The notes under the pieces: generated by a model
The model's database searches: none
The model's input: the letters and a program-made list of their open reading frames with translations, nothing else
What the model was told of the DNA's origin: nothing
Made by a program: the position numbers and the translations under genes
Source: Malacoraja senta
Lineage: Eukaryota
Assembly (NCBI GenBank): GCA_038087875.1
Contig: CM075993.1
Location: forward strand, 9,550,001-9,614,000
DNA: 64,000 bases
Direction: 5' to 3'
Shown here: positions 2,813 through 61,380 of the stretch, one piece after another
How the letters are laid out: the number at the start of each line of letters is the position of its first letter
Numbering within the stretch: position 1 is the first letter of the stretch

Positions 2813-3265
2813 TCTAAAGTTGCTGATTTTAAATACATGGGAATGACATTTCAAGAATCAGACATAACTCTGGATATTAGTAGGTATTGCACAGAACCAC
2901 TTTGGAATTCAGGGCCATTTTTTCATTTCACCCTTCAATCAGGTCAACATTTATTAAATGACTAGACTAAGTGGGACCCGTTGGGTCCCAGCTTCACACG
3001 GGAGGGCTGGTCCCCCAATGCAAAATTCCACCTCTCCACCAATTCCAATATTGGTGGCCAGTGGGGGGGGGGGGGCTTTCTGGAGCGCTAGTATAGGTGT
3101 TGTGGGCTGAAGGGACTGGTTTCCAGAGGGCTAGTATGGACATTGTGGGCCGAATGGGTTCTTGGGCTGGCGGCTCAGTCACTCAAGCCTGTTGTGCTGG
3201 CAGCTCACTCACTCACGGCTGGTCGGCTGGAAGTTGACTCATGGCTATTCCTTGAAATTCCATTC

Positions 3266-3525
3266 CAAGCAGGGTGCAAGGCCACCAAATTCAAATGCAG
3301 TTTCCTGCCTTCAAGCACGGTGCAAGGCCACCAAACTCAAGTGCAGTTTCCTGCCACTTCAAGCAGGGTGCAAGGCCACCAAATTCAAGTATAGTTTCCT
3401 GCCACTTCAAGCAGGGTGCAAGGCCACGAAACTCAAGTGCAGTTTCCTGCCACTTCAAGCAGGGTGCAAGGCCACCAAATTCAAGTGCAGTTTCCTGCCA
3501 CTTCAAGCTGGGTGCAAGGCCACTA
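3266..3525. repeat. 48-bp tandem repeat inside the Helitron
   Basis: Unit aagcagggtgcaaggccaccaaattcaagtgcagtttcctgccacttc, ~5 copies; a related unit occurs at 37973-38240. Confidence 0.9.
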
Positions 3526-3867
3526 AAGACAGAGAGTCGTGACCTCTGCCTCCCTCATCTTGCAGAGACCGGGCCACGGCCACACTTCTGGGTTTTATAG
3601 TCCCTCCCACCGGAAGGGGCGTGGCCTTCATGGCATGATTGACAGGAGAGAGAATCTCAACATTTCTTAAACACTAATAACTCTTTTATTTTTCATCCAT
3701 GGGATAAATCCTCGGCACCTGATGAACGGAGGGGGACTCTGAGTAAGATGGTCAAAAATCACAGCCGTATGTGGTAGCATTAGTTCTAAAATCAATATAC
3801 AGCACAAAGAGGAAGTGGTCAAGATTAGACTTTTAATTATATAGAAGGCAAGGCCACTTTTCAATAA

Positions 3868-4312
3868 GGCCAGGCCACTTTAGCATTTTCAAACCACAGG
3901 CCACTTTAGCATTTTCAAACCACAGGCCACTTTAACATTTTCAAACCAAAGGCAACTTTAGCATTTTCAAACCACAGGCAACTTTAGCATTTTCAAACCG
4001 CAGGCAACTTTAGCATTTTCAAACTGCAGGCAACTTTAGCATTTTCAAACTACAGGCAACTTTAGCATTTTCAAACCACAGGCAACTTTAGCATTTTCAA
4101 ACCACAGGCAACTTTAGCATTTTCAAACCGCAGGCAACTTTAGCATTTTCAAACCACAGGCAACTTTAGCATTTTCAAACCACAGGCAACTTTATCGTTT
4201 TCAAACCACAGGCAACTTTAGCATTTTCAAACCAAAGGCAACTTTAGCATTTTCAAACCACAGGCAACATTAGCATTTTCAAAGCAAAACACACTTTTGC
4301 ATTTTCAAACCA
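3868..4312. repeat. 26-bp minisatellite inside the Helitron
   Basis: Unit ggcaactttagcattttcaaaccaca, ~17 copies. Confidence 0.9.
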
Positions 4313-5134
4313 CATTAAGGGACAGGTCAGTGAAACCACTCACAGTTTAGTAGACATGTGTTCAGTATTATTCACAGCTCAGACGGAAAGCTGTGACCTC
4401 TCCCTCCCCCATCTTGCAGAGAACTGAGGCACCTCCACACTTCCGTGTTTTACAGTCCCTCCCCACCCCACCAGAAGGGGCGTGGCCTTCATGGCATGAT
4501 TGACAGGAGAGAGAATCTCAACATTTTTAAAATATATAATAAGTCTTTTATTTTTCATCGATGGGAAAAATCCTCTGGCCCTGCGGAGCGGAGGGGGACT
4601 CTGAGTAAGATGGCCAAAAATCACAGCCGTAAGTCGTAGTGTTTTTTCTAAAATCAATATGCAGTGCAACAGGAAGTGGTCAAGATCAGAGTATTAATTA
4701 TATAGATGCTGCGGAACTTCCATGCAGTCACAGTACCAACCTCAGTTGAAGCAGAGAACAACACTCAGATAGGCTAAATAGCTAATTTAACAACCCCAAC
4801 CAAACATACATTCTAGGCAACTGTACCTTCAATTGGACAGAGCTGGTATGTTATGACAGTAAAATGTATGTGTTTAAGATCTATCATTACAAAACCAGAC
4901 ATGCTTGAAACATTCAGCAGGTTAGACAGCATTTTTTCATGTGGGTGATAACAGATGTACTGAGTATATTTATTCATGTTACTGTGGTATTTACAGGTTT
5001 TGAGTGCATGTTGATTTGCGCTCAGAGTAGAACTGCAGATTTCTACACCTGTCTGACTGTGAAGATTACACATTCTGTGCTACAGACCACCGGAATCCAT
5101 CGTAAGGCAACACCACCCTCTTTGGAGGAGTAAA

Positions 5135-8799: not shown

Positions 8800-8966
8800 G
8801 TGAGTTTCATTAATTGTTTTTTCTGCATTTACAGATGTTTGATAATTGTCCACATTTTCATAATTCTCTGAAAATACTAAAACTAATCAGAAACATCATT
8901 TCAGCTTCGGAAGGATAAGACAGAGACAGAGTACATGACAAGAAAACTGTGTTCTCTATTTTGAAG

Positions 8967-9106
8967 GTTGTGGTGAAGAATATAAGAACCACATGGTCCG
9001 CTTGTTGACCTACCTGCCAGGAACTCAACTACTGGGGATCCCTGCAGACCCACAGATCTTGTACAAAATTGGCCGAACACTTGGTCAGATTAACATAGCT
9101 CTGACA
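8967..9106 (+). pseudogene. hykk: hykk copy B, coding exon 2 (no downstream exons found)
   Basis: ag|..CGEEYKNHMVRLLTYLPGTQLLGIPADPQILYKIGRTLGQINIALT|gtaaat; 140 nt; homology to copy C ends near 9405. Confidence 0.85.
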
Positions 9107-11855: not shown

Positions 11856-12429
11856 CTGTTGGACATACAAATGTTGCAACATTTTACCATCTATACATAA
11901 CTAAAACTATGATCTTGTTATCTTCTGGTTTGCACGGTCTTTCTATTTGCGCAAAAAAGGTACGCGATAGTGCTACGCACATCGTTCTCCTCTGCTGCGA
12001 GTGTACCGTTTCGTTCCAATCGGTGGCATAATGTAAAAGTTAGCAAGGTTTAAAAATCTTTAAAATGGCGCATGCGCAGATCGATCTCCTCTCCTGCCTG
12101 TCAGCGCCGCGCGTTAGTCTCTTCTCCTGTGTAATGAACCGGATTTGATAAAGGACCTCGAGGTTAATGAGCCATTAGGAGGTACTGACCATAACATGGT
12201 CAGGTTTAATCTACAATTGGAGAGGGAGAAGGGTAGATCAGAGGTGTCAGTGTTACAGTTGAATAAAGGGGACTATGGGGCCATGAGGGAGGAGCTGGCC
12301 AAGTTACAATTGGGGCACCTTTGTCGGGCCCGTCCCCCGGGAGCAGTGCCGAACCCCGGGGGTCGTGGCGGGGTAGTGTTCATCCGATGGCTGGTAGTGC
12401 TGGCAAAGTTAATATCATGGTCAGCCGGT

Positions 12430-13437
12430 GACACCTACTCCAGCTGGTTTGAGGTCGACCAGCTGCACTCCCTCACCTCTTCGGCCGTGGTCGATAAGTT
12501 AGGCCATCATTTTTGCACTTTTGGCACCCCGGCCAGCCTGCAGTCGGACAATGGCAGCCAATTCACGAGCTCCGAGTTTAAAGCTTTCGCATCCAGATGG
12601 AACTTCCGCCATTTCACCAGTAGCCCTGAATACCCGCAAAGCAACGGTCTGGCCGAGCGCGCCGTCCGCAGTGCAAAGAACTTGCTGGAACAATGTCGCT
12701 TGTCCAACTCCGACTTCTATCTGGCCCTCCTCAACCTCCGCAACATCTCCCGCGACCCTGCCATGGGCTCCCCTGCTCAGCGGCTCATGTCTCGCGCTAC
12801 CAGACCACCGATCCCGGTGGCCCAGCGCTCCCTCATCCCCTCTGTCCTCAAGCCTGCTGCTGTTCAGGAACGCATTGCCTTTAGGCACGATGTTCAGAAA
12901 CGTTCCCATGACAGGTCCTGCCACCCACTGCCGCGCCTCTTCCCCGGCCAGGTGGTCCGCATGCAGACCCCCTCCGGTCATTCAAAGCTCGCTACCATCG
13001 TCGGCTCTGCTGGGTCGCCCAGGTCCTATCTCGTCGACCATGCTGGAACCGTTTACCGACGGTCCCGCCAACACCTGCGGCTCGTCAATGAGCCGCGGCC
13101 GCGTGCCGCGGATCCTTTTGCTCCCCCACTGCAGTTTCAGCACCCGGGCGATGCTCTGCCTGCCACTCCTCGCATGCCACGATCTCTACCCTCTCAACTC
13201 CTTCCATCCCATCCTCCTCCGGCTAGTCCTCACTCGCCTGCCCGCGCGCTGCCCGCTGCTGAACCCGCATCTCCTGCTTTTTTGCCATTATCTTCTCCGT
13301 CCCCTCCGGTTTCCCCCTTTCCAGTTCGTCTGTCCTCACCTGTGCCACTTCTTCCTGCCGGAAGGGAGGATGTCGAGATGCGAACCCGGTCGGGACGTGT
13401 TGTCAAACCGCCTGTCCGCTACGGTGATTTTGTTTAA
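12430..13437 (+). mobile_element. Ty3/Gypsy integrase core and C-terminus
   Basis: DTYS..., SDNGSQF, SSPEYPQSNGLAERAVR (D,D,E triad), RSYLV, YRRSRQHLR, RTRSGRVVKPPVRY. Confidence 0.88.
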
Positions 13438-13701: not shown

Positions 13702-15344
13702 GGACACAAACAATCTTCCTGATATAGTAGTGGCCAGAGGATCTGGGGTGACGGAGGAACTGAAGGAAATCCACATTAGGCAGGAAATGGTGTTGGATAG
13801 ACTGATGGGACTGAAGGCTGATAAATCCCCAGGGCCTGATGGTCTGCATCCCAGGGTACTTAAGGAAGTGGCTCTAGAAATCGTGGATGCATTGGTGATA
13901 ATTTTCCAATAGACTCAGGATCAATTCCTTGACTAATCTTCTGGAATTCTTTGAAGATGTAACTAGGAAAATGGACAAGGGAGAGCCAGTGGATGTAGTG
14001 TACCTGGACTTTCAAAAAGCATTTGATAAGGTCCCACATAGGAGATTAGTGGGCAAAATTAGGGCACATGGTATTGGGGGTAGAGTGCTGACATGGATAG
14101 AGAATTGGTTGGCAGACAGGAAACAAAGAGTAGGGATTAACGGGTCCCTTTCAGAATGGTAGGCAGTAACTAGTGGGGTACCGCAAGGCTCGGTGCTGGG
14201 ACTGCAGCTATTTACAATATACATCAATGATTTGGAAGGGATTCAAAGTAACATTAGCAAATTTGCAGATGACACAAAGCTGGGTGGCAGTGTGAACTGT
14301 GAGGAGGATGCTATGAGAATGCAGGGTGACTTGGACAGGTTGGGGGAGTGGGCAGATGCATGGCAGATGAAGTTTAATGCGGATAAATGTGAGGTTATCC
14401 ACTTTGGTTGCAAAAACAGGAAGACAGATTACTATCTAAATGGCGTCAAGTTGGTAAAAGGGGAAGTACAACGGGATCTACGGGTCCTTGATCATCAGTC
14501 TATGAAAGTAAGCATGCAGGTACAGCAGGCAGTGAAGAAAGCGAATGGCATGTTGGCCTTTACAACAAGAGGAGTCGAGTAAAGGAGCAAAGAGGTCCTT
14601 CTGCAGTTGTACAGAGCCCTAGTGAGACCACACCTGGAGTATTGTGTGCAGTTTTGGTCCCCTAATTTGAGGAAGGACATTCTTGCTATTGAGGGAGTGC
14701 AGCGTAGGTTTACAAGGTTAATTCACGGGATGGTGGGACTGCCATATGCTATTAGAATGGAGCAGCTGGGCTTGTACACTCTGGAGTTTAGAAGGATGAG
14801 AGGGGATCTCATTGAAACGTATAAGTTGTTAAGGGTTTGGACACGCTAGAGGCAGGAAACATGTTTCCAGATGTTGGGGCAGTCCAGAACCAGGGGCCAC
14901 AGTTTAAGAATAAGGAGAAAGCCATTTAGAACGGAGACGAGGAAACACTTTTTCTCACAGAGAGTGGTGAGTCTGTGGAATTCTCTGCCTCAGAGGGCGG
15001 TGGAGGCAGGTTCTCTGGATGCGTTCAAGAGAGAGCTAGATAGGGCTCTTAAAAATAGCGGAGTCAGGTGATATGGGGAGAAGGCAGGAACGGGGTACTG
15101 ATTGCGGATGATCAGCCATGATCACATTGAATGGCGGTGCTGGCTCGAAGGGCCGAATGGCCTACTCCTGCACCTATTGTCTATTGTCCTGTCACTCCCC
15201 GGGTACGGTCCGCCTCATCCTGCTCCATCGCGTCTTTACTGGAGCTGAGGGATGCCCTGGATGGCCGGCGGAGGTCTCTAACCGGACGCAATTTCGGAGG
15301 GACTGAAAATGGCCCGGCCCAGCCCAGCTCAGCCCGGCCCGGCT

Positions 15345-15888
15345 CTCTCCCTCCTTTCCCCCCCACCTACAAACCCCTCTCCCCCCACAACCACCCCCGC
15401 CCACACACCCCTCTCCGCCAACAACCACCCCCGTCCACACAACACCTCCCTCCACAACCCATCGCCCACACCCATCCCCCCACAACCCCCCCGCCCACTC
15501 ACACCTCCCCTCACAACCCCCGCCCACACCCCCGCCCACACCACCCTCCCCGCACAAACCCCCCCACACCCATCCCTCCGACAACCCCCCCACCCACATA
15601 CCCCTCCCCCCGACAACCCCCCTCCGCCCATACACACCCACTGCCCACAAATACCTCCCTCCCCCACACACACACCCTCCCCCCTAACATATCCCTGCTC
15701 CTCCACTCCCACACCCCTCCCACCCACATACACACCTCCCCTCCCACCCCAGACCACACACCCCTACACCACCCTCTCCCCCCCTCCTACACCTCCCCGC
15801 CCACACACAACCTCCCTCCCCTCCTACCCCACAACTCCCCTGCCACACACCCCACTTCCCTCCCCCATCCCCTCCTCCCCTCCCACAC
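15345..15888. repeat. C/A-rich low-complexity tract within the Helitron
   Basis: Runs of ccccaca/ccctcccc with almost no G on the + strand. Confidence 0.9.
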
Positions 15889-16323
15889 ATGAAGAGGAGG
15901 GGGAGGGAGTGCTCGTGGATGAGGGAAAATGAGCCGTGCCTGCGCAGTTAGGGGCTATGGGTGAGTGGTGGAATATTGCGTTGGAGGAACGGGTTGCGTT
16001 GGGGGAAGGGGTGAGTGGTGGAATATTGCGTTGGGGAATGGGTTGCGTTGGGTGACCAGGGCTCCCGTGTGACTGAGACCCAACGGGTCCCACTTTGTCT
16101 AGTTCATCCCTAAAAGGCAATATGTACTCCTCAGTGTACCAGGGTTGATCCTCTGGTTGGATTTTAATGATAGAGTGAGGAATATGCCAGACCATGAGGT
16201 TACAAAGTATAGGCACAAAATGTTGGAGTAACTCAGCCAGACAGGCAGCATCTCTTCTCAACACTCTATCTGATCTGAAATGTCATTCTGTTACCCTCAT
16301 GATCAAGAAAGATAGGCACTTAC

Positions 16324-18965: not shown

Positions 18966-20428
18966 CTGAAAGACAGGAGAAGAATGAAACACATTAAATA
19001 AGTGAATGTTGCACCCTGTGGAAACTGCAGTATGACCAAGGTTAGGGTAGCTGTGCAGCACAACAACCTTTAGTCAGTCACTGACAAACATCAATGTCCC
19101 TGATTGTTTTGGGATTGACACACACTACATGGTTCTTGATATTGAAAATTAAATAAAGGATTAAATAGCATGTAGGTTTACTTGTATTAGTGTTATTGCA
19201 TTTGTATATCAATGTTTGGAGAACGTATTGTTATTGATGATAAGAAACTAGAAAGTGCGCACAATTCCAAGGGTCAAAATCTGTATAAAAAGTTAACAGT
19301 TCTGATTGTAATTTCGGAGTAAAGTGACTGGGACAGTGCTGCTCTCCTTGTGTACAAGTAAATAAAGTGTGATGGCTAACCTTTAGTTTCACTATACGGG
19401 AGAACGACTGAACCTATCGCTGGAATGCAGATTTCTTCCTGTGTAGAGTAGTTGAAGTACGCATCACATTCGTTGCCGAGAGAGATATAGGGGGCAATTG
19501 CGGCGCCAGACAGGGAATAGCATTTGTGTCGGGTGGTTTGGTTAAGGATCAAGGTCCTGTCAGAGCCGCGAGCGTTCTGTGGGCTGGGTCCAGTGTGAGT
19601 GTGAATGAATATGATTGTAACTAAAATGGCCCAGACTCCCCAAGGGGACGCTAACAGCTACAAACAGAAATTATGGAGTTTAGAATTTCGAGACAAATTC
19701 TAATATTGTAGTATTAATTAGTTATGATGAATTGGTAGTGTTTCATGCTTTTTATTCAGACACAGTGTTTGTGTGGTATCGGAGTATTGAAGGGTCTGCA
19801 GACTTTCACTAAAAACTGAACATATGAGAACTAACAAAACAAAACAAAAACTATGGAATTCAACTAACAACTTTCACACAGAACACAGTGAACACACTGC
19901 TGAGAAAACACACTTCCTTATATGTGTGGGATGATTAGGATGTATCAAGTGCTTCCATGTCATAAAGGGATTTTCACAGTTGTGTTTGGGATCGTGTTGC
20001 CTGTGGCCTTGAGTTTGCACGCTGTTCTTTACCACTGTGTTCAACTGACATATTTTCAGACATTTAACCACTTTTTGAGTGAACTAACCCCCATCAATTC
20101 TCTGCAAACTCCTACAATTTGTAATTTGCAGATCGATCTGCCCCATCTGTCCCCCTAGCTGAACATGAAGCACGGGAACCCCTTCAACAGCGTACACGTC
20201 ATTCCGCAGGGCACAGTTTTTATAATCCAAGTCCTATAATAAATCAGAATTTGGAATTTGAGGTTCTAACTATGGCATTATTAATATTTTACATTTTCAC
20301 AGGCTCAGTCACAGTCATAGCATGGAAAGAGGCCCTTCAGCCCAATTCATCTCTGCTGACCAAGGTATCTTTTGCTCGTCCCATTGTCATCACCATGCAT
20401 TCTTTCCCCAGACACGCTTTATTTACTT

Positions 20429-21085
20429 CCCTTCCCTCCCATACCACCCCCTCCCCGGGTACTTTCCCTTGCAACCGCAAGAGATGCAACACTTGTCCCT
20501 TCACCTCCCCCCTCGACTCCATTCAAGGACCCAAGCAGTCGTTCCAGGTGCGACAGAGGTTCACCTGCATCTCCTCCAACCTCATCTATTGCATCCGCTG
20601 CTCTAGATGCCAGCTGATCTACATCGGTGAGACCAAGCGGAGGCTTGGCGATCGTTTCGCCGAACACCTCCGGTCGGTCCGCAATAACCAACCTGACCTC
20701 CCGGTGGCTCAGCACTTCAACTCCCCCTCCCATTCCGTATCTGACCTCTCTGTCCTGGGTCTCCTCCATGGCCACAGCGAGCAACACCGTAAATTGGAGG
20801 AAATGCACCTCATATTCCGCTTGGGTAGTCTACATCCTGGGGGCTTGAACATTGAATTCTCCCAATTCTGCTAGCCCTTGCTGTCCCCTCCCCTTCATCA
20901 GCCCTCTCGTTGTCTCCTCCCCTCCCCCAGCCCTCGGGCTTCTCCTCCGCCTTTTTCCTTTTTTCCTTTCTTCTCCCCACCCCCTATCAGTCTGAAGAAG
21001 GGTTTCGGCCCGAAACATTGCCTATTTCCTTCACTCCATAGATGCTGCTGCACCCGCTGAGTTTCTCCAGCATTTTTGTGTACCT
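20429..21085 (+). mobile_element. 5'-truncated Penelope-like retroelement (GIY-YIG endonuclease plus terminal repeat)
   Basis: NLIYCIRCSRCQLIYIGETKRRLGDRFAEH; 15-bp TSD acgcttta(t/g)ttactt at 20414-20428 and 21086-21100; empty site at 6669-6683. Confidence 0.92.
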
Positions 21086-26974: not shown

Positions 26975-27840
26975 ATACAATACAATACAATACAATTTAT
27001 TTTGTCTTTTGGACAAATTTGTCATTTGGACCCCTTGAGGTCCAAACGAAATGTCGTTCTGCAGCCATACATTACAAAACGAAAAAAGACCCGAGACACA
27101 ACACAATTTACACATACATGCATCACAGCGCTGTGATGGAAGGCAAAAAAAACGTCTTTCCACTGCACTCCCCCCCCCCCCTGATGTCAGAGTCAAAGTC
27201 AAAGCCCCCGGCGGGCGATGGTGATTATCCCGCGGCCATTAAAGCCACGCCGGTTAATGCAGGGTCGCGCACCGGGTCTTGTTCTTAGAGCCCCGGCGCG
27301 CGCTCGCAAAGTCCGGCTGCCATTCCAAGCCGCGCGGGGGGATAAAGCCCCGCTCCAGGTGCTCTTCAACCCCGCAACTCGGGCAGGAGAAGTCGCCGCT
27401 GCGGAAGCCCCGAAAAGCGGTCTCCCACCAGGGGACCCGCGGGCTTCCAGTGTTGCCGTCCGCCAGACCCACGGTTGTAGCCTCCGAATCTCCGGGGATC
27501 GGGTCGCAGCAGCGCTCCACCACAGCTCCACCCGCTCCGGACTCGGCCAGCCCCGTGACGGTGAGTAGTCCGCAGCTCCACAACTGGGGCCCCAGGTCGT
27601 TCCTGCTGGAGGCCGCTCCACGTTGCCCAGCCCCAACGACAACGGAGACCCGACAAAGAAAAGGTCGGGTCTCCCGTGCAGGGGAAAGATTTTAAAGTTC
27701 CCCCCCACACCCCCACCCCCACCCCCCCACACACATACCCCGACAAAATATTAATAAAAAACTACATAAAAACGAGACAAAAATAATAAAAGACAGACGG
27801 ACTGCAGAGGCCGCTGCAAACAAGAGTGGCGCCGCCCACC
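26975..27840 (-). mobile_element. GC-rich interspersed repeat related to 5135-5850
   Basis: Same layout on the minus strand (GC core, T-rich linker, catcacag/ctgtgatgg hairpin); (caata)n at the 3' end. Confidence 0.55.
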
Positions 27841-27899
27841 GATACCTACAATGCCGTCTCTGGTGGACAATTCCAACTTTCAGTGGCACAGCCGGTAGA

Positions 27900-28180
27900 A
27901 CCAAATGTAATATCGGGAGCTCGCGGGTCCGGGTGAGAGACCGCTTTCCGGAGCTCCCGCAACGCAACTTCTCCCGCCCGTGTTGGAACGACCCGGAGCG
28001 GGGCCATAAATCGCCCAGCACGGCTTTAATGGCCGCGGGACATTCCAGCGCCCGCCGGGGGCTCCAACTTGTGACTTTTGGGCCCGGAGCGAGGAATTGT
28101 TTTGTTTGTATGGCTGTGGAAACGGAGTTTCGTTTGAGCCTCTTTGAGGTTCAAATGACATGAAGAAATAAAATCATCAT
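27900..28180 (+). mobile_element. GC-rich repeat fragment, same family as 56019-56300
   Basis: Shares gggaca.ccagcgcccgccgggggctcc and gtatggctgt.gaaac.gagt.tcgtttgagcctc. Confidence 0.55.
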
Positions 28181-28982: not shown

Positions 28983-31900
28983 GCTTGCTTTCAACAACTG
29001 CTGCACACATACAGCCAGATTATGATGCTTCTTTCCGTTTCCATTTAGATAATAATCTGGTTTTTATAATCAACATTTAGCAACGTTAAATATTTGCCAT
29101 GCATTTTCCCAATCACACAACTAGTCTATATCACTTTGAGCCTCTTTGCATCCAACTCACGGCTTATGTGCCCTCTCCAGCTTAGAACTGTCGGTAAACT
29201 TGAATTGAATTCCCTCATCCAAACCATTGATGTTCAGTATGTGATACTGTAGTGTAAACACTAATCACTGCAGAAAGATGGCATCTGCAGAGTTCGAGTT
29301 ATGAGGAGAGACTGGATAGGTGTTTTTTTCTCTCTAGAGGCTGAGGAAGCTGAGGGGAGACCTTGCAGAGATTTTTAGAGTAATGTGAGGCATAGCTGAG
29401 TTACTCCAGCATTTTGTGTCTATCCTTGCTTAGTTGTTGGCCATGAACTGTGTACAGGGCTAGAAAGAAACTACAGTGAAAGACTAATAATCCACTCGCT
29501 GACTATTTGTGTATCCTGATGATTTAACATCTGGCTCATCAGATGATATTTGCCACTCTCCTTCCCACACAGTGAGATGGCAGTTTGCATGTTCCCTTTA
29601 AATATCCCCAGTTTACTGGAAAGTACATTATAGTATCATGCACTATCTATATAATTAAAAGTCTAAACTTGACCACTTCCTGTTTGCACTGTATACCGAT
29701 TTTAGTAAAAACGCTACCACTTACGGCTGTGATTTTTGGTCATCTTACTCAGAGTCCTCCTCCAGCTGTCAGGGCCAGAGGATTTTTCTCATCGATGAAA
29801 AATTAAAGACTTATTAATGTTTTAAAAATGTTGAGATTCTCTCTCCTGTCAATCACACCATGAAGGCCACGCCCCCTCCAATGGCAGGGGAGGGACTATA
29901 AAACCCAGCAGTGTGGACATGCCTCAGTCTCTGCAAGATGGGGGAGTGAGAGGTCACGACTCTCAGTCTGAGCTGTGAATAACACTGAACACATGTCTAC
30001 TAAACTGTGAGTGTAGTTTTACTGACCTGTGAGTGCCCTTAATGTGGTTTGAAAATGAAGTTTGAAAATGAAAATGTGGTTGGTTTGAAAATGAAAATGT
30101 GGTTGGTATGAAAATGAAAATGTGGTTGGTTTGAAAATGAAAATGTGGTTGGTTTGAAAAAGAAAATGTGGTTGGTTTGAAAATGAAAATGTGGTTGGTT
30201 TGAAAATGCGGTTGGTTTAAAAATGTGTTTGGTTTGAAAATGAAAATGTGGTTTGAAAATCTATAATATTAAAAGTCTAAATTTGACCACTTCCTGTTTG
30301 CACTGTATATTGATTTTACAAAAAATGCTACCACATACAGCTGCGATTTTTGGCCATCTTACTCAGAGTCCTCCTCCAGCTGTCAGGGCCAGAGGATTTT
30401 TCCCATCGATGAAAAATAAAAGACTTATTAATGTTTAAAAAATGTTAAGATTCTCTCTCCTGTCAATCATGCCAGGAAGGGTACGCCCCTCCCGGTGAGA
30501 GGTGGGAGGGACTATAAAATCCGGAAATGTGGACGTGCCTCAGTCTCTGCAAGATGGGGGAGCAAGAGATCACGATTCTCAGTCTGAGCTGTGAATAACA
30601 CTGAACACATGTCTACTAAACTGAGTGTGGTTATACTGACCTGTGAGTGCCCTTAATGCAGTTTGGAAATGAAGTTTGAAAATGAAAATGTGGTTTGTTT
30701 GAAAATGTGGTTGGTTTGAAAATGAAAATGTGGTTGGTTTGAAAATGAAAATGTGGTTGGTTTGAAAATAAAATGTGTTTGGTTTGAAAATGAAAATGTG
30801 GTTGGTTTGAAACTGAAAATGTGGTTGGTTTGAAAATGTGGTTGGTTTGAAAATGTGGTTGGTTTAAAAATGTGGTTGGTTTGAAAATGAAAATGTGGTT
30901 GGTTTAAAAATGAAAATGTGGTTTGATAATGAAGTTTGACAATGAAAATGTGGTTTGGAAATGAAGTTTGAAAATGAAAATGTGGTTGGTTTTAAACTGT
31001 GGTTGGTTTGAAAATATGGTTGGTTTGAAAATGTGGTTTGTTTGAAAATGTGGTTTCAAAATCTATTTAATTAAAAGTCTAAACTTGACCACTTCCTGTT
31101 TGCACTGTATATTGATTTTAGAAAAAACGCTACCACTTACGGCTGTGATATTTGGCCATCTTACTCAGAGTCCCCCTCCAGATGTCAGGGCCAAGGGATT
31201 TTTTCCATCGATGAAAAGTAAAAGACTTATTAATTTTTTTAAATGTTGAGATTCTCTCTCCTGTCAATCACGCCATGAAGGTCACGCCCCTTCCGGTGGG
31301 AGGGGGAGGGACTATATAACCCGGAAGTGTGGACGTGCCTCAGTCTCTTTAAGATGGGAGAGCGAGAGGTAACGACTCTGAGCTGTGAATAACACTGAAC
31401 ACTGAACACATGTCTACTAAACTGTGAGGGTGGTTTTACTGACCTGTGAGTGCCCTTAATGTGGTTTGAAAATGAATCTTGAAAATGAAAATATGATTGG
31501 TTTGAAAATGAAAATGCGGTTGGTTTGAAAATGAATATGTGGTTCGTTTGAAAATGTGGTTTGAAAATGAAAATGTGGTTTGAAAATGAAAATGTGGTTG
31601 GTTTTAAAATGTGGTTGTTTGAAAATGTGGTTGGTTCAAAAATGAAAATGTGGTTTGAAAATGAAAATGTGGTTGGTTTGAAACGGGTTAGTTTGAAAAT
31701 GTGGTTGGTTTAAAAATGAAAATGTGGTTGGATTGAAAATGTGGTTGGTTTTCAAATATGGTTGGTTTGAAAATGTGGTTGGTTTGAAACTGGTTGGAAA
31801 ATGAAAATGTGGTTGTTTTGAAAATGTGGTTGGTTTAAAAATGTGTTTGGTTTGAAGATGTGGTTGGTTTGAAAATGTGGTTGGTTTGAAAATGTGGTTG

Positions 31901-34900
31901 GTTTGAAAATTAAAGTGTGGTTGGTTTGAAATGAAAATGTGGTTGGTTTGAAAATGAAAATGTGGTTGGATTGAAAATGAAAATGTGGATGGTTTGAAAA
32001 TGTGTTTGGTTTTAAAATGTGCTTGGTTTGAAAATGTGGTTGGTATAAAAATGAAAATGTGGTTTGATAATGAAGTTTGAAAATGAAAATGTGGTTGGAT
32101 TGAAACTGGTTGATTTGAATATGTGGTTGGTTTGAAAATGTGGTTTGTTTGAAATTGAAAATGTGGTTTCAAAATCTATATAATTAAAAATCTAAACTTG
32201 AACACTTCCTGTTTGCACTGTATATTGATTTTAGAAAAAACGCTACCACTTACGGCTGTGATTTTTGGCCATCTTACTCAGAGTCCCCTTCCAGATGTCA
32301 GGGCCAGGGGATTTTTTCCATCGATGAAAAATATAAGACTTATTAATGTTTTAAAAATGTTGAGATTCTCTCTCCTGTCAATCACGCCATGAAGGTCACG
32401 CCCCTTCCGGTGGGAGGGGGAGGGACTATATAACCCGCAAGTGTGGACGTGCCTCAGTTTCTTTAATGATGGGAGAGCGAGAGGTAACGACTGTCTGAGC
32501 TGTGAATAACACTGAACACTGAACACATGTCTACTAAACTGTGAGGGCGGTTTTACTGACCTGTGAGTGCCCTTAATGTGGTTTGAAAATGAATCTTGAA
32601 AATGAAAATGTGGTTGGTTTGAAAATGAAAATGTGGTTGGTTTGAAAATGAAAATGTGGTTCGTTTGAAAATGTGGTTTGAAAATGAAGATGTGGTTGGT
32701 TTTAAAATGTGGTTGTTTTGAAAATGTGGTTGGTTTAAAAATGAAAATGTGGTTTGAAAATGAAGTTTGAAAATGAAAATGTGGTTGGTTTGAAAATATG
32801 GTTGGTTTGAAAATGTGGTTGGTTTGAAACTGGTAGGAAAATGAAAATGTGGTTGTTTTGAAAATGTGGTTGGTTTGAAAATGTGGTTGGTTTGAAGAAG
32901 TGGTTGGTTTGAAAATGAAAATGTGGTTGGACTGAAAATGTGGTTGGTTTGAAAATATGGTTGGTTTGAAAATGTGGTTGGTTTCAAACTGGTTGGAAAA
33001 TGAAAATGTAGTTGTTTTGAAAATGTGGTTGGTTTGAAGATGTGGTTGGTTTGAAAATGTGGTTGGTTTGAAAATGAAAGTGTGGTTGGTTTGAAATGAA
33101 AATCTGGTTGGTTTGAAAATGAAAATGTGCTTGGATTGAAAATGAAAATGTGGTTGGTTTTAAAATGTGGTTGGTTTTAAAATGTGGTTGGTTTGAAAAT
33201 GCGGTTGGTATAAAAATGAAAATGTGGTTTGATAATGAAGTTTGAAAATGAAAATGTGGTTGGTTTGAAACTGTGGTTGGTTTGAAAATGTGGTTGGTTT
33301 GAAATTGAAAATGTGGTTTCAAAGTCTATATAATTAAAAATCTAAACTTGAACACTTCCTGTTTGCACTGTATATTGATTTTAGAAAAAACGCTACCACT
33401 TACGGCTGGGATTTTTGGCCATCTTACTCAGAGTCCCCTTCCAGATGTCAGGGCCGGTTTTTTTTTTCATCGATGAAAAATATAAGACTTATTAATGTTT
33501 TAAAAATGTTGAGATTCTCTCAGCCTGTCAATCACGCCATGAAGGTCACGCCCCTTCCGGTGGGAGGGGGAGGGACTATATAACCCGGAAGTGTGGACGT
33601 GCCTCAGTCTCTTTAAGATGGGAGAGCGAGAGGTAACGACTCTGTCTGAGCTGTGAATAACACTGAACACTGAACACATGTCTACTAAACTGTGAGGGCG
33701 GTTTTACTGACCTGTGAGTGCCCTTAATGTGGTTTGAAAATGAATCTTGAAAATGAAAATGTGGTTGGTTTGAAAATGAAAATGTGGTTTGTTTGAAAAT
33801 GAAAATGTGGTTCGTTTGAAAATGTGGTTTGAAAATGAAAATGTGGTTGGTTTTAAAATGTGGTTGTTTTGAAAATGTGGTTGGTTTAAAAATGAAAATG
33901 TGGTTTGAAAATGAAGTTTGAAAATGAAAATGTGGTTGGTTTGAAAATGTGGTTGGTTTGAAAATATGGTTGGTTTGAAAATGTGGATGGTTTGAAAATG
34001 TGGTTGGTTTGAAGATGTGGTTGGTTTGAAAATGAAAATGTGGTTGGACTGAAAATGTGGTTGGTTTGAAAATATGGTTGGTTTGAAAATGTGGTTGGTT
34101 TGAAACTGGTTGGAAAATGAAAATGTAGTTTTGAAAATGTGGTTGGTTTGAAGATGTGGTTGGTTTGAAAATGTGGTTGGTTTGAAAATGAAAGTGTGGT
34201 TGGTTTGAAATGAAAATCTGGTTGGTTTGAAAATGAAAATGTGGTTGGATTGAAAATGAAAATGTGGTTGGTTTTAAAATGTGGTTGGTTTGAAAATGCG
34301 GTTGGTATAAAAATGAAAATGTGGTTTGATAATGAAGTTTGAAAATGAAAATGTGGTTGGTTTGAAAATGTGGTTGGTTTGAAGAAGTGGTTGGTTTGAA
34401 AATGAAAATGTGGTTGGACTGAAAATGTGGTTGGTATGAAAATATGGTTGGTTTGAAAATGTGGTTGGTTTGAAACTGGTTGGAAAATGAAAATGTAGTT
34501 GTTTTGAAAATGTGGTTGGTTTGAAGATGTGGTTGGTTTGAAAATGTGGTTGGTTTGAAACTGAAAGTGTGGTTGGTTTGAAATGAAAATCTGGTTGGTT
34601 TGAAAATGAAAATGTGGATGGATTGAAAATGAAAATGTGGTTGGTTTTAAAATGTGGTTGGTTTGAAAATGCGGTTGGTATAAAAATGAAAATGTGGTTT
34701 GATAATGAAGTTTGAAAATGAAAATGTGGTTGGTTTGAAACTGTGGTTGGTTTGAAAATGTGGTTGGTTTGAAAATGTGGTTGGTTTGAAATTGAAAATG
34801 TGGTTTCAAAGTCTATATAATTAAAAATCTAAACTTGAACACTTCCTGTTTGCACTGTATATTGATTTTAGAAAAAACGCTACCACTTACGGCTGTGATT

Positions 34901-36167
34901 TTTGGCCATCTTACTCAGAGTCCCCTTCCAGATGTCAGGGCCGGGTTATTTTTTCCATCGATGAAAAATATAAGACTTATTAATGTTTTAAAAATGTTGA
35001 GATTCTCTCAGCCTGTCAATCACGCCATGAAGGTCACGCCCCTTCCGGTGGGAGGGGGAGGGACTATATAACCCGGAAGTGTGGACGTGCCTCAGTCTCT
35101 TTAAGATGGGAGAGCGAGAGGTAACGACTCTGTCTGAGCTGTGAATAACACTGAACACTGAACACATGTCTACTAAACTGTGAGGGCGGTTTTACTGACC
35201 TGTGAGTGCCCTTAATGTGGTTTGAAAATGAATCTTGAAAATGAAAATGTGGTTGGTTTGAAAATGAAAATGTGGTTCGTTTGAAAATGAAAATGTGGTT
35301 CATTTGAAAATGTGGTTTGAAAATGAAAATGTGGTTGGTTTTAAAATGTGGCTGTTTTGAAAATGTGGTTGGTTTAAAAATGAAAATGTGGTTTGAAAAT
35401 GAAGTTTGAAAATGAAAATGTGGTTGGTTTGAAAATGTGGTTGGTTTGAAAATATGGTTGGTTTGAAAATGTGGATGGTTTGAAAATGTGGTTGGTTTGA
35501 AGATGTGGTTGGTTTGAAAATGAAAATGTGGTTGGACTGAAAATGTGGTTGGTTTGAAAATATGGTTGGTTTGAAAATGTGGTTGGTTTGAAACTGGTTG
35601 GAAAATGAAAATGTAGTTGTTTTGAAAATGTGGTTGGTTTGAAGATGTGGTTGGTTTGAAAATGTGGTTGGTTTGAAACTGAAAGTGTGGTTGGTTTGAA
35701 ATGAAAATCTGGTTGGTTTGAAAATGAAAATGTGGTTGGATTGAAAATGAAAATGTGGTTGGTTTTAAAATGTGGTTGGTTTTAAAATGTGGTTGGTTTG
35801 AAAAAGCGGTTGGTATAAAAATGAAAATGTGGTTTGATAATGAAGTTTGAAAATGAAAATGTGGTTGGTTTGAAACTGTGGTTGGTTTGAAAATGTGGTT
35901 GGTTTGAAAATGTGGTTGGTTTGAAATTGAAAATGTGGTTTCAAAGTCTATATAATTAAAAATCTAAACTTGAACACTTCCTGTTTGCACTGTATATTGA
36001 TTGTAGAAAAAACGCTACCACTTACGGCTGTGATTTTTGGCCATCGTACTCAGAGTCCTCCTCCAACTGTCAGGGCCAGAGGATTTCTCCCATCGATGAA
36101 AAATAAAAGACTTATTAAAGTTTTAAAGATGTTGAGATTCTCTCTCTTGTCTATCACGCCATGAAGG

Positions 36168-36342
36168 CCACGCCCCTTCCGGTGGGAGGGGAGGGGCTAT
36201 AAAACTCGGAAGTGTGGACGTGCCTCAGTCTCTGCAAGATGGGGGAGTAAGAGGTCACGATTCTCAGACTGAGCTGTGAATCACACTGCACACTGAACAC
36301 ATGTCTACTAAACTGTGAGTGTGGGTTTACTGACCTGTGAGT
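36168..36342 (+). promoter_or_regulatory. Representative promoter, first exon and splice-donor cassette of a Helitron head
   Basis: CCACGCCCC 36168-36176, CTTCCGG 36176-36182, TATAAAA 36198-36204, CGGAAGT 36207-36213, Inr-like TCAGTCT (A at 36227), CAAGATGG, GTGAGT at 36315 and 36337. Motif-based only. Confidence 0.5.
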
Positions 36343-37972
36343 GCCCTTAATGTGGTTTGAAAATGAAGTCTGAAAATGAAAATGTGGTTGGTTTGAAAAT
36401 GTGGTTGATTTGAAAATGAAAATGTGGTTGGTTTGAAAATGAAAATGTGGTTTGTTTGTAAATGTGGTTGGTTTGAAAATGTGGTTTGTTTGAAAATGTG
36501 GTTGGTTTTAAACTGGTTGGACAATGAAAATGTGTTGGTGTGAAAATGAGGTTGGTTTGGTAATGTGGTTGGTTTGAAAATGAAAATGTTGGTTTGAAAA
36601 TGAAAATGTGGTTGGTTTGAAAATGAAAATGTGGTTGGTTTGAAAATGAAAATGTGGTTGGTTTCAAAATGTGGTTGGTTTGAAAATGTGGTTGGTTTGA
36701 AACTGTGGTTGGTTTGAAACTGGTTGGAAAATGAAAATGTGGTTGTTTTGAAAATGTGGTTGGTTTGAGAATGTGGTTGGTTTGAAAATGTGGTTGGTTT
36801 GAAAATGTGGTCAGAAAATGAAAATGTAGTTGGTTTGAAAATGAAAATATATTTGGTTTGAAAATGAAAATGTGGTTGGTTTGAAAATGTGGTTGGTTTT
36901 AAAATGTGGTTGGTTTGAAAATGTGGTAAGTTTAAAAATGAAAGTGTGGTTTGAAAATGTAGTTTGAAAATGAAAATGTGGTTTGAAAATGAAGATTGAA
37001 AAAGAAAATGTGGTTGGTTTGTAAATGTGGTTGGCTTGAAAATGTGGTTGGTTTGAAAATGTGATTGGTTTGAAAATGAAAATGTGGTTGGTTTGAAAAT
37101 GAAAATGTGGTTGGTTTGAAAATGTCGTTGGTTTGAAAATGAAAATGTGGTTGGTTTGAAAATGAAAATGTGGTTGGGTTGAAAATTAAAATGTGGTTGG
37201 TTTGGAAATGAAAATGTGGTTTGAAAATGAAGTTTGAACATGAAAATGAGATTTGAAAATGAAGTTTGAAAATGAAAATGTGGTTGATTTGAAACTGGTT
37301 GGTTTGAAAATGTGGTTTGAAAATGTGTTTGGTTTGAAAATGAAAATGTGGTTTGAAAATCTATATAATTAAAAGTCTAAACTTTACCACTTCCTGTTTG
37401 CACTGTATATTGATTTTAGAAAGAACGCTACCACTTACGGCTGTGATTTTTGGCCATCTTACTCAGTCCCCCTCCAGCTGTCAGGACCAGAGGATTTTCC
37501 CATCGATGAAATATTAAAAAACGTATTAATGTTTTTAAAATGTTGAAATTCTCTCTCCTGACAATCACGCCATGGCGACGCCCCTTCCGGTGGGAGGGCG
37601 GGGGGAATATAAAATCCGGAAGTGTGAATGTGCCTCAGTCTGCAAGATGGGGAGGGAGAGGTCACGACTCTCAATCTGAGCTGTGAATCACACTGAACAC
37701 TGAACACATGTCTACTAAACTGTGATTGTGGGTTTACTGACCTGTCAGAAAATGAAAATGTGGTTTGAAAATGAAGTTTGAAAATGAAAATGTAGTTGGT
37801 TTGAAACTGCTTGGTTTGAAACTGTGGTTGGTTTGAAATTGTGGTTGGTTTGAAAATGTGGTTGGTTTGAAAATGTGGTAGAAATGAAAATGTGTTTTGA
37901 AAATCTATATAATTAAAAGTCTAATCTTGACCACTTCCTGTTTGCGCTGTATATTGATTTTAGAAAAAACGG

Positions 37973-38240
37973 ATTTGGTGGCCTTGCACCCTGCTTGAAA
38001 TGGTATGAAACTGCACTTGAATTTGGTGGCCTTGCACCCTGCTTGAAATGGTATAATACTGCACTTGAATTTGGTGGCCTTCCACCCTGCTTGAAATGCT
38101 ATGAAACTCCATATGAATTTGGTGGCCTTGCACCCTGCTTGAAATGGTATGAAACTGCATTTGAATTTGGTGGCTTGCACCCTTTTTGAAATGGTATGAA
38201 ACTGCATTTGAATTTGGTGGCCTTGCACCCTGCTTGAAAT
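37973..38240. repeat. 48-bp tandem repeat
   Basis: atttggtggccttgcaccctgcttgaaatggtatgaaactgcacttga, ~5.5 copies; reverse-complement variant of 3266-3525. Confidence 0.9.
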
Positions 38241-38505
38241 CACGTCCACGCCGGTCATCGATCACTCGTTCACACTAGTTCTATGTTATCCCACTTTCTT
38301 ATCCACTCCCTACACACTCGGGGCAATTTACAGAGGCCAATTAACCTGAAAACCCGCTCGTCTTTGGGAAGAACCCAGAGCACCCGAAAACCCATGTGGT
38401 CACAGGGAGAACATACAAACTCCACATGACAAGCACTTGAGGTCAGGATGGAACTGGGTCACTGGCACTGTGAGGTAGCAGCACTACCAACTGCACCACT
38501 GTGCT
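38241..38505 (-). mobile_element. HE1-type SINE
   Basis: Reverse-complement homology to 42640-42900. Confidence 0.7.
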
Positions 38506-38999
38506 ATCGAATAGAATAACATACAAGAATCCAGAAAATCTGCAAATGCAGAACCACCTCAGTCTTGAGCAGGCCAGATTAATGGAATTTTATTGTACAA
38601 TCATTCGTGCATCATCATTGTCCTCAATGCCATGGAAATACTTCTATAAGGTAAGGAAACCTGCATTGCCAAATGTAATATTGTTGTTTTATTTCTTTGT
38701 ATCAAATGTTCCATCAAATGCAAGAAAGGAAATAGTCACAAATTCACAAATATGTTCTTCGCTCGAATGATGTAGGAAGGGTCATCAAACTGAAAAGTTA
38801 ACTCTGTCTCTTTGTCCATAGATGTGGACTGACATGCTGAATGATTCCAGCTTTTTCTTTTTTTGATTTAGATTTTTAGCAAGTAGTCTTTTGATTTTCA
38901 TCAGCATCAGGATAGGGAGGGGAACTACAGTGCCATCATCTGGTCAGATATATAGTTGGAAATTTAAAATACTCTCAGCCCTAAAAAAGAATAGTCTAA

Positions 39000-39145
39000 T
39001 TCTGAAGAAGGGTCTTGACCAGGGTCTGAAGAAGGCTCTCGAAACGTCACCCATTCCTTCTCTCCAGAGATGCCGCCTGTTCCGCTGAGTTACTCCAACA
39101 TTTTGTGTCTCTCCGGTGTAAACCAGCATCTTTAGTTCGTTCCTG
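39000..39145 (+). mobile_element. Penelope terminal repeat with a duplicated hammerhead core
   Basis: ctgaagaagggtcttgacc then gggtctgaagaaggctctcgaaacgtcaccc. Confidence 0.65.
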
Positions 39146-39211
39146 AATAGTCTAATTTCATATTTCCATGAAAAGAATGCTTATAAGTATTAAAACAATC
39201 ATGTGAGGGCA

Positions 39212-39615
39212 CTGGGCCTGTACTCGCTAGAGGAAGAGGGGGGACCTCATTGAAATGTAATGAATAGTGGAAGGCCTGGATAGAGTAGATGTGGAGAGGA
39301 TGTTTTCACTAGTGAGAGAGCCTAAGACCAGAGGGCACAGCCTCAGAATAAAAGGGACATACCTTTAGAAAGGAGATGAGGAGGAATTTCTTTACTCAGA
39401 GGGCGGTGAATCTGTGGAATTCATTGCCGCAGACAGCTATGGAGGTCAAGTGATTAGGTATTTTTAAGGTGCAGATTGACAGATTCTTGATTAGTATGGG
39501 TGTCAGGGTTATGGGGAGAAGGCAGGACAACGGGGTTGAGAGGGAAAGATAGACCAGCCATGAGTAGACTTGATGGGCAGAATGGCCTAATTCTGCTCCC
39601 ATAACTTATGTACTT
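39212..39615 (+). mobile_element. Old CR1 3' fragment
   Basis: ctgggcctgtactcgctaga...gtgaatctgtggaattcattgcc...gaatggcctaattctgctcc. Confidence 0.7.
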
Positions 39616-39837
39616 AGGTTCACTGTCAAATGCTGCAAGCTCTTTGAAAGAACTATCTGATCATTCCCACTCTTGAACCTTCTCCAAATATCACTGTAAA
39701 TATTAATGTTGATATGCATCAGAAAGAAATACACGCTGTTACGTAGCTGATGGTAGAAGCTTAGGATATCTCAAACTGTTTTACAGACAACAGCCAATAA
39801 TGTACTTCTTAAGTGTGGTTATTTTTGTAGAATGGGG

Positions 39838-40342
39838 TGTGTCGCTGTGAGTGTGTCACGGTGTCACTGTGAGTGTGTCACTGAGTGTGTCACTGAGTGT
39901 GTCACTGTGAGTGTGTCACTGCGTGTGTCACTGCATGTATCACTGTGAGTGTGTCACTGCATGAGCGTCACCGTGAGTGTGTCACTGTGAGTGTATCGCT
40001 GTGAGTGTGTCACTGTGAATGTGTCACTGAGTGTCACTGAGTGTGTCACCGTGAGTGTGTCACTGTGAGTGTGTCACAGTGAGTGTGTCACTGAGTGTAT
40101 CACTGTGAGTGTGTCACTGCGTGGATCACTGTGAGTGTGCCACTGTGAATGTGTCACTGAGTGTGTCACTGTGAGTGTGTCTGTGAGTGTGTCACTGTGA
40201 GTGTGTCACTGTGTGTCACTGTGAGTGTATCACTGTAAGTGTGTCTCTGTGAGTGTGTCACTGAGTGTGTCACTGGGTGGTGTGTCACTGTGAGGGTATC
40301 ACTGGGTGGTGTGTCACTGTGAGTGTGTCAATGTGAGTGTGT
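39838..40342. repeat. (GTGTCACTGTGAGT)n-type minisatellite
   Basis: ~35 degenerate units of 12-14 bp. Confidence 0.92.
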
Positions 40343-40617
40343 CTTTGGGATTAATACCAGGTGCACGTCCCCACTGTATCGGCGGGCGGGCAGGTTGCAA
40401 TCGGATGTCCTCACTCCACCAGTTATCTCTCTGATCAAACGCTCCCTACTGCACGCTCACGAATGTAACATGAGACCACGTGCTTTAACTGAACCGAATA
40501 AACCAGTTAGCTGGTTACTGTTATGCTGCCTTTAGTAGAGTTACTTCTCTTTTTCTCTTAGATCAGCCTGTGGTGTCTTAAAAATCACTCTGCTGAGCCA
40601 GAAGCAGCTAACCTGAA

Positions 40618-40672
40618 ATGGGGCCATGCGTTAGGTTGGTGGCTCTGTTCCTCCTCTCCCGCTACCTGACAG
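40618..40672 (+). CDS. Putative signal-peptide exon of an unidentified gene
   Basis: ATG MGPCVRLVALFLLSRYLT + G|gtgaga (55 nt, phase 1); hydrophobic core; upstream pyrimidine tract plus TAG ending at 40561. Confidence 0.55.
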
Positions 40673-40854
40673 GTGAGAACGATGCCAGTGTATTTTTCAC
40701 AGCTTCTGGCTGCATCTCTGTGGGGGAGTGTAAAAGCTGAACAATATTATTTGTATTAGAGTCTTTGATGTTGCAGTTTAATTGTGGGCAATTGGTTAAA
40801 AATTGGTACAGGTGAGGTTATAGTTTTTAGTTTTTTATAAGATGTTATATATTT

Positions 40855-61127: not shown

Positions 61128-61380
61128 TATTTATTATTTCATACATCTCTAATTTCCCACTTAATGTCATTACTACTACTTTTTTGGGATCTGTATTTAA
61201 CTTCCAGTAACATTCTGTATTTCTTGGTTTAACCCATCCATATTCAGAGCGACAAATCACATTCAGAGTTGCACTAATCTCCTCTTTAATCAACAATAGC
61301 AGCTCACCTTCCATTCCAGAACATCTGCCCTTCCCACTGATCTGAATAATCTTTCTGCCAATGTTGCCTTTTTTTTCTAG

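What the first reader, a model, noticed from the sequence alone, without database searches (positions are those of the whole stretch)
29860..37745. Each Helitron head carries a correctly spaced Pol II promoter, short exon and splice donor
Seen in the unit at 35947: GC/KLF box, two opposed ETS cores flanking TATAAAA, an Inr-like TCAGTCT with its A 29 nt after the first T of TATA, YY1-like CAAGATGG just downstream, then GTGAGT donors at 36315 and 36337. Further ETS (CACTTCCTGT) and, in most units, YY1-like (GCCATCTT) motifs lie upstream. The layout recurs with minor changes in all eight full heads (TATAAAA or TATA(T)AA). Knowledge: bat Helitrons are known to disperse captured promoters. Inference: a mobile, tandemly amplified promoter battery that could create transcripts or act as an enhancer cluster between hykk and the downstream gene.
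Basis: partly seen in the sequence, partly recalled or inferred. Interest (0 to 1): 0.72.

Follow-up and report, generated by a model that had tools for sequence, protein, structure and literature searches.

The report
Promoter-carrying Helitron array in a skate
A common jumping gene in a skate-like fish carries a promoter-shaped start; eight tandem copies of that start sit 2.3 kb in front of a membrane-protein gene, but they are mutating like dead DNA and no activity has been shown.

Summary
The motifs are there and exceed chance. TATA to Inr-A is 29 nt in 8 of 8 heads; TATA+Inr arose in 20 of 20,000 shuffles, and with GC box plus ETS in 0. The full layout survives in only 4 of 8 heads. The heads are 5' ends of a high-copy non-autonomous Helitron family of skate-like fishes. 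A second copy in the window has the hairpin and CTAG end; the array lacks it. The eight heads are inherited duplicates. Best reading: an ancestral promoter, probably the transposon's own, carried as a decaying passenger and amplified by unequal exchange. New context: a host membrane-protein gene on the same strand begins with an acceptor-bearing exon at 40562, 2.3 kb past the array, and a spliced Helitron leader would leave its start codon usable. Co-option is possible (about 0.2) but untested. Both ingredients have precedents: bat HelibatN3 and plant arrays with many 5' ends.

The parts
29646..38240 (+). Whole array: 8 full Helitron heads, each followed by a 17/23-bp minisatellite, then a 68-bp head and a 48-bp repeat. 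No family 3' end.
29646..30040 (+). H1, outermost head, A|TC insertion junction; predicted +1 at 29926; both proximal ETS cores lost
30260..30655 (+). H2; +1 at 30542; first ETS core, strict KLF box and first donor lost
31062..31458 (+). H3; +1 at 31342; full layout; 5' part old type, 3' part of the H4-H6 type
32175..32575 (+). H4; +1 at 32456; second ETS core and downstream YY1-like motif broken; recent duplicate
33325..33726 (+). H5; +1 at 33606; full layout; recent duplicate
34812..35214 (+). H6; +1 at 35094; full layout; 99% identical to H5
35947..36349 (+). H7; full layout; the last head that still has donors; mosaic (columns 16 and 28 like H4-H6, the rest old type)
36168..36242 (+). H7 core promoter: KLF-like box, ETS, TATA 36198, ETS, Inr (A 36227), YY1/Kozak-like AAGATGG
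36227..36336 (+). H7 predicted first exon, 88 or 110 nt to the donors at 36315 and 36337, with two short upstream ORFs
   Evidence: inferred, not shown as RNA
37360..37748 (+). H8; +1 at 37637; core promoter intact, both donors lost
37904..37972 (+). H9, 68-bp internal copy of the 5' end, joined to the 48-bp repeat; the same junction occurs in another organism
37973..38240 (+). 48-bp repeat, 5.6 copies, shared with family copy E2
38241..38505 (.). SINE-like dispersed repeat abutting the array; holds the CTAG at 38276-38279 that mimics a Helitron end
   Evidence: the SINE label is recalled
40562..40672 (+). First coding exon (signal peptide, ATG 40618) of a type I membrane-protein gene; preceded by the strongest acceptor-like site in 29600-40700 (17 of 18 pyrimidines)
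2962..4706 (-). E2, dispersed family copy: full head, 26-bp minisatellite, internal 315-bp head at 3845, 48-bp repeat, hairpin and CTAG|T end

Best explanation
Each head is the first ~400 bp of a non-autonomous Helitron1-type element. It contains a real, old Pol II core promoter (KLF/ETS sites, TATA, Inr) and a short first exon. Most likely this is the promoter that drove the transposase of the autonomous parent, kept because it lies next to the 5' end needed for rolling-circle mobilisation (inferred). The family's basic unit is full head, minisatellite, short second head, 48-bp repeat, 3' end (shown in E2; inferred for one foreign contig). With heads on both sides of the minisatellite, the head+minisatellite unit can multiply. 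Five heads, now about 10% apart, arose early by a rolling-circle concatemer or unequal exchange (inferred). H4-H6 were added later by unequal exchange inside the heads (shown by the H3/H7 mosaics). The 3' end was lost. Since then the copies have decayed as neutral, probably methylated DNA, so the 'battery' is a by-product. Residual activity from the four intact heads is possible but unselected.
For: Layout beyond chance: 0 of 20,000 shuffles reach TATA+Inr+GC+ETS. Helitron ends: A|TC at 29646 and 4706; a paralogous stretch without the element reads A|T at the same base; 7 and 14 contigs of two other organisms stop matching exactly at the TC, with varied flanks whose consensus ends in A; hairpin (z -2.7) and CTAG|T in E2. 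High copy: 191, 495, 51 and 6,577 contigs laid on H7 in 4 of 4 runs from 4 coded organisms. The cassette is also in dispersed copy E2a and in the more diverged internal head E2b, so it predates this locus. Neutral decay: 29/484 vs 141/2185, p=0.76; CpG 17/126 vs 153/2543, p=0.002. Mosaic heads. Precedents for a Helitron's own promoter: HSEs in the RepHel promoter of Caenorhabditis Helitrons (PMC6927752, passages); ChIP peaks at the presumed promoter of Xenopus Heli1Xen1 (PMC12001565, Results part 1 of 3). Arrays with many 5' ends and one 3' end: Xiong et al. 2016 as recounted in PMC12628747 and PMC6591975 (passages).
Against: No copy linked to a RepHel gene was seen, so 'own promoter' is untested. 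The anatomy (promoter, a few codons, donor, right behind the 5' end) matches bat HelibatN3, whose promoter is captured (PMC4778049). A 68-bp head is enough to start one family form (H9), so the remainder could be captured DNA. The conservation test pools 7 lineages and cannot exclude constraint on one head. TATA, Inr and their 29-nt spacing survive in 8 of 8 array heads, and the array faces an acceptor-bearing host exon 2.3 kb away.
Confidence: 0.45

Rival explanations
1. Captured host promoter, as in HelibatN3: a short Helitron 5' end picked up a host gene's promoter, first exon and donor, spread family-wide, and now decays as a passenger here.
For: Same anatomy as HelibatN3 (promoter, six codons, donor; PMC4778049); here an ATG 13 nt before the first donor gives four codons plus two bases. 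Bat Helitrons captured promoters from 15 genes and such elements reached high copy number (PMC4224331, passages). A 68-bp head exists as a separate form.
Against: No source found: nothing beyond short matches (best E 0.25) elsewhere in the window, and no host genome could be searched. E2b carries the promoter without donors, and H9, E2b and full heads can be read as nested deletions of one longer 5' end.
Confidence: 0.25
2. Co-option: one or more heads (H7 is the nearest with donors) supply an alternative first exon to the membrane-protein gene at 40562, or the array acts as its upstream enhancer.
For: Same strand, with the array ending 2.3 kb before the exon. The exon has the best acceptor-like site of the region, which suggests a separate upstream non-coding exon. 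Joining H7's exon to it gives a 144- or 166-nt leader whose two upstream ORFs stop before the main ATG, whereas the nearest strong donor in unique DNA (38651), tested with an exon from 38506, gives ORFs overlapping that ATG. HelibatN3 acts as an exon trap experimentally, and Helitron motif clusters regulate neighbours in Caenorhabditis. The minisatellite holds 197 RUNX-like and 87 IRF-like words (motifs recalled).
Against: Motifs are not preferentially conserved and CpGs are hypermutated. The head closest to the gene (H8) has lost both donors. The gene has relatives in four sharks, so it had its own promoter; a GC box and an E-box lie within 200 bp of 40562 (motifs recalled). With thousands of family contigs, some copies will lie near genes by chance. 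Short tandem units match some factor's motif easily.
Confidence: 0.22
3. The motifs are a chance cluster or a structural palindrome in a GC-rich patch, multiplied eightfold by duplication.
For: The motif set was chosen after the fact; the copies are not independent; the donors are a local duplicate and one donor arises in 4% of shuffles; the constant spacing has about a 0.21 chance under the observed indel rate.
Against: Even shuffles that keep the GC-rich core give TATA+strict Inr in 39 of 20,000 and the composite in 0; 0 of 131 background tiles pass beyond TATA+loose Inr. The region does not fold better than its shuffles (z -0.85).
Confidence: 0.05
4. The tandem array is partly an assembly artefact.
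For: H4-H6 are 98-99% identical; no laid contig spans even one head.
Against: Heads and spacers differ in sequence and length (units 544-1487 bp); five heads are about 10% apart; the head-minisatellite-head junction exists in another organism.
Confidence: 0.03

Closest known systems
HelibatN3 of Myotis bats (NUBPL promoter capture; PMC4778049 and PMC4224331, passages read)
   Same: Non-autonomous Helitron with a promoter, a few codons and a splice donor close behind the 5' end; high copy; could trap a downstream acceptor.
   Different: HelibatN3's promoter is a proven capture with shown activity. Here no source gene and no transcript are shown, the cassette is TATA-type, and it is repeated eight times in tandem.
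Helitron arrays with many 5' ends and one 3' end (Xiong, Dooner and Du 2016; not read, seen only as recounted in PMC12628747 and PMC6591975)
   Same: Tandem, partly decayed, 3'-truncated units; amplification from internally repeated sequence.
   Different: Described in plants and mostly centromeric. Here it is a vertebrate gene-flanking locus, each unit bears a promoter, the later growth shows unequal-exchange mosaics, and the 3' end is missing.
HSE-bearing Helitrons of Caenorhabditis (PMC6927752, passages read)
   Same: Regulatory sites thought to come from the transposase promoter, clustered in non-autonomous copies upstream of host genes.
   Different: There binding and induction were measured. 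Here a whole core promoter with a donor is repeated and nothing is measured.
Xenopus Heli1Xen1 and Heli2Xen (PMC12001565, abstract and Results part 1 of 3 read)
   Same: Vertebrate Helitrons with many short non-autonomous copies, internal minisatellites, tandem arrays of 2-7 units and a presumed 5' promoter.
   Different: Sequence relationship not tested: the consensus FASTA supplement could not be read.

Membership tests
Helitron1 (canonical), non-autonomous | 5' end TC, inserted after an A | tested here: met
   A|TC at 29646 and 4706; same breakpoint in 7 and 14 contigs of two other organisms; paralogous A|T site
Helitron1 (canonical), non-autonomous | 3' end CTRR preceded by a short hairpin and followed by T (family level) | tested here: met
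   E2 ends CTAG|T at 2962 with a hairpin, z -2.7; a similar end at 16043-16103 did not fold above its shuffles
Helitron1 (canonical), non-autonomous | 3' end present on this array | tested here: not met
   The 48-bp repeat runs into a different dispersed repeat at 38241; no hairpin (z +1.45). The array is a 3'-truncated copy.
Helitron1 (canonical), non-autonomous | No target-site duplication | tested here: inconclusive
   None at E2, but E2's 3' flank does not match the paralogous empty site, so its two flanks may come from different insertions
Helitron1 (canonical), non-autonomous | Shares ends with an autonomous RepHel element | not testable with these tools
   No genome held; no RepHel hit among 75 + 142 ORFs scanned outside the array
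Promoter-capturing Helitron (HelibatN3 type) | Promoter, short exon and donor inside the element | tested here: met
   By sequence layout only; complete in 4 of 8 heads
Promoter-capturing Helitron (HelibatN3 type) | Homology to a host gene's promoter | not testable with these tools
   Only the window could be searched; no match
Promoter-capturing Helitron (HelibatN3 type) | Transcripts that start in the element and splice to host acceptors | tested here: inconclusive
   No RNA holder listed; only contigs could be laid
Multi-5'-end Helitron tandem array | Several 5' ends head to tail without internal 3' ends | tested here: met
   Nine TC starts; the family 3' end is not found in 29646-38240
Co-opted (domesticated) promoter or enhancer | Motifs more conserved than flanking element sequence | tested here: not met
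   29/484 vs 141/2185, p=0.76; core motifs 22/294

The most novel reading that the evidence does not exclude
A Helitron whose 5' end flanks its own minisatellite on both sides expands like a VNTR of complete promoters. At this locus the array supplies alternative first exons, or an ETS/RUNX-rich enhancer, to a cartilaginous-fish receptor-like gene with tyrosine motifs, so head number could tune its expression between individuals or species.
Probability: 0.17. Interest if true: 0.7.

Novelty: new member of a known kind. Interest (0 to 1): 0.42.

Why it matters
Even as a passenger, the family places a ready-made TATA promoter with a donor at many sites in skate genomes, the same raw material that rewired bat genes. 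My searches found no paper on it (listings only, and the library lacks most subscription papers). This locus is a good test case because the array faces an acceptor-bearing host exon: one long-read or capped-RNA data set would show whether a tandem Helitron promoter array has been adopted. Finding the autonomous parent would also define a vertebrate Helitron's own core promoter, which the papers I read describe only as presumed.

Tried and rejected
Own genome: none held. RNA: no RNA holder listed among 18 runs. I laid 4 of the 18 (three guessed RNA, one unlabelled; all contigs). No joint or loose end at 36315 or 36337 was among those shown, 344 loose ends were not shown, and contigs cannot show starts or levels. 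This is no evidence either way. Pattern scans: 0 hits in viral contigs and 0 in metagenomes. A second pattern gave 2 metagenome loci; the printed alignment rows (first 30, all for L001) showed only the 20-nt seed, L002's rows were cut off, and I treated both as chance. Rfam: 0 matches. Earlier scan findings: nothing for this place or sequence, and 8 unrelated Helitron notes. My first reading of CTAG at 38276-38279 as the array's 3' end was rejected. A weak CD4-tail Pfam hit at 61346 (E 0.002) was the wrong frame of a real exon. A hairpin explanation of the opposed ETS cores was rejected. The constant 29-nt spacing as a sign of selection was rejected (chance about 0.21). The Atlas search for the downstream protein gave leads under 0.9 only. 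Supplements: the Helraiser PDF and the Heli1Xen1 FASTA could not be read; both bear on the native-promoter question. Of 172 short unmasked ORFs beyond 38300, 142 were scanned; the 30 skipped lay in LINE-like stretches. The 66 between 19000 and 29646 were not scanned.
Full report
Observation. The stretch 29646-38240 holds eight ~400-bp heads separated by a 17/23-bp minisatellite, then a 68-bp ninth head and a 48-bp repeat. Across the eight heads, TATA, Inr and the 29-nt spacing are in 8/8, both proximal ETS cores in 5/8, the downstream AAGATGG in 7/8, the second GTGAGT in 7/8 and the first in 2/8. The complete layout passes in 4 of 8 heads. For one head the layout is far from chance: TATA with a strict Inr in 20 of 20,000 shuffles, with GC box and ETS in 0, and nothing beyond TATA plus loose Inr in 131 background tiles. 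The motif definitions are recalled consensus patterns chosen after seeing the sequence. The donors alone are weak: 4% by chance, and the pair is a 22-bp duplicate. A real hykk donor in this window also has GTGAGT with a non-consensus exon side, so such donors can be used.

What the heads are. They begin A|TC. A second copy, E2, lies on the minus strand from 4706 to 2962 with a full head, a different minisatellite, an internal 315-bp head, the same 48-bp repeat and a hairpin plus CTAG|T end. A paralogous stretch near 22492 matches E2's 5' flank up to the A and carries no element. Laying public contigs on H7 gave 191, 495, 51 and 6,577 contigs in 4 of 4 runs from four coded organisms, with 7 and 14 contigs breaking off exactly at the TC in two of them. 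The host is a skate-like batoid by its hykk-like protein (best named hit 83%, Rhinoraja). This is a high-copy non-autonomous Helitron1-type family. The array itself has no family 3' end: the CTAG at 38276-38279 lies in another dispersed repeat found twice more in the window and has no hairpin.

How the array grew. In one run, a 251-nt contig covers the end of a full head, and a joint of the same depth leads through 26 letters of minisatellite back to the TC start. A loose end after head position 68 enters the 48-bp repeat. The four lengths add up to 251, so I infer one record. The E2b-type junction also appears in two runs. The two-headed unit is therefore a family structure, not a local accident. 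In the array H1, H2, H3, H7 and H8 are about 90% identical and H3-H6 are 96-99% identical. H7 shares columns 16 and 28 with H4-H6 but lacks their later diagnostic bases, and H3 is the reverse, which is what unequal exchange inside the heads leaves. How the first five arose cannot be told from these data; a rolling-circle concatemer of a template without a 3' end is the published model for such arrays (Xiong 2016, seen only through PMC12628747 and PMC6591975).

Is it maintained? Counting H3-H6 as one lineage and including E2a and E2b, motif sites changed in 29 of 484 site-lineage pairs and other sites in 141 of 2,185 (p=0.76); the six core motifs changed in 22 of 294. CpG sites changed in 17 of 126 against 153 of 2,543 (p=0.002), as expected for germ-line methylation (inference). 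The constant spacing has about a 0.21 chance at the observed indel rate. The test cannot exclude constraint on a single head.

Neighbours. A complete hykk-like gene runs on the minus strand from 18974 to 11383, so the array points away from it, 10.7 kb off. Downstream, an open frame at 61350-61610 matched one unnamed 386-residue protein at 69%, which maps to 40618-40677, 61362-61607 and 62571-62972 on the plus strand. The first two exons join in frame at GT-AG sites. Its four relatives are uncharacterised shark proteins sharing the membrane and tail region, two with immunoglobulin domains, and all with tyrosine motifs in the tail. The first coding exon starts at 40562 behind a 17-of-18 pyrimidine acceptor-like site, the best in 29600-40700. 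An H7 exon spliced to it would give a 144- or 166-nt leader with two short upstream ORFs ending before the main ATG. This is the geometry in which HelibatN3 traps exons (PMC4778049). It is a possibility only; the gene's true first exon is unknown.

Origin of the promoter. For a native origin: it lies 220-390 bp inside the 5' end, occurs in the older internal head too, and Helitrons' own promoters are described or presumed in Caenorhabditis and Xenopus. For capture: the HelibatN3-like anatomy, the existence of a 68-bp minimal head, and the bat precedent of 15 captured promoters. Neither could be tested without a genome. I put native at about 3:2 over captured.

Verdict. Shown: motifs, non-random layout, Helitron-type ends at family level, inheritance by duplication, neutral-like decay, position before a same-strand host gene. 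Inferred: promoter function, native origin, methylation, early amplification route. Not shown: any transcript. Weights: native promoter as passenger 0.45, captured promoter as passenger 0.25, co-opted for the downstream gene 0.22, chance 0.05, artefact 0.03. Both ingredients are known kinds. Searches for Helitrons in skates or elasmobranchs listed 0, 1 and 9 papers, none on this family by title (listings only). New member of a known kind, interest 0.42.

Noticed in passing
window 1-22492: Large inverted partial duplication of the hykk-like gene: exons 1-2 at 8454-9106 (+) and part of the last exon at 3-281 (+) mirror the complete gene on the minus strand. One duplicated block ends exactly at the 5' end of Helitron copy E2.
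   Followed up: partly
window 15189-16103 (+): Third element with the same Helitron-type 3' end (CTAG|T at about 16103) inside a hykk intron, with a C-rich internal repeat and no copy of the head.
   Followed up: partly
window 30040-37900: The minisatellite contains 197 RUNX-like (TGYGGTY) and 87 IRF-like (GAAANNGAAA) words, against 16 and 6 in the rest of the window. Motifs are recalled, and a short unit can match by chance.
   Followed up: partly
window 36218 and 36223: In three of four laid runs most depth reads G at both places, which gives a second KLF-like box after the second ETS core and a mirror KLF-ETS / ETS-KLF layout around TATA. The window's heads belong to a subfamily without it (motif recalled).
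   Followed up: no
window 40562-62973 (+): Uncharacterised type I membrane-protein gene; shark relatives have immunoglobulin domains, while the skate-type ectodomain matched no Pfam family.
   Followed up: partly
window 39837-40343: 14-bp microsatellite rich in GTGAGT words directly before the acceptor at 40561; it shares a 12-nt word with the Helitron donor.
   Followed up: no
window 38574-38650 (+): Unique stretch ending in a strong donor (AAG|GTAAGG at 38651) with an open frame; a possible exon of unknown status.
   Followed up: partly
window 27190-28080: GC- and CpG-rich element bounded by inverted repeats (27191-27278 with 28076-27990); looks like another transposon, not a host CpG island.
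   Followed up: no
window 12118-13434 and 20125-20871: An integrase-core ORF (PF00665) inside a hykk intron and a weak GIY-YIG ORF just upstream of hykk.
   Followed up: no
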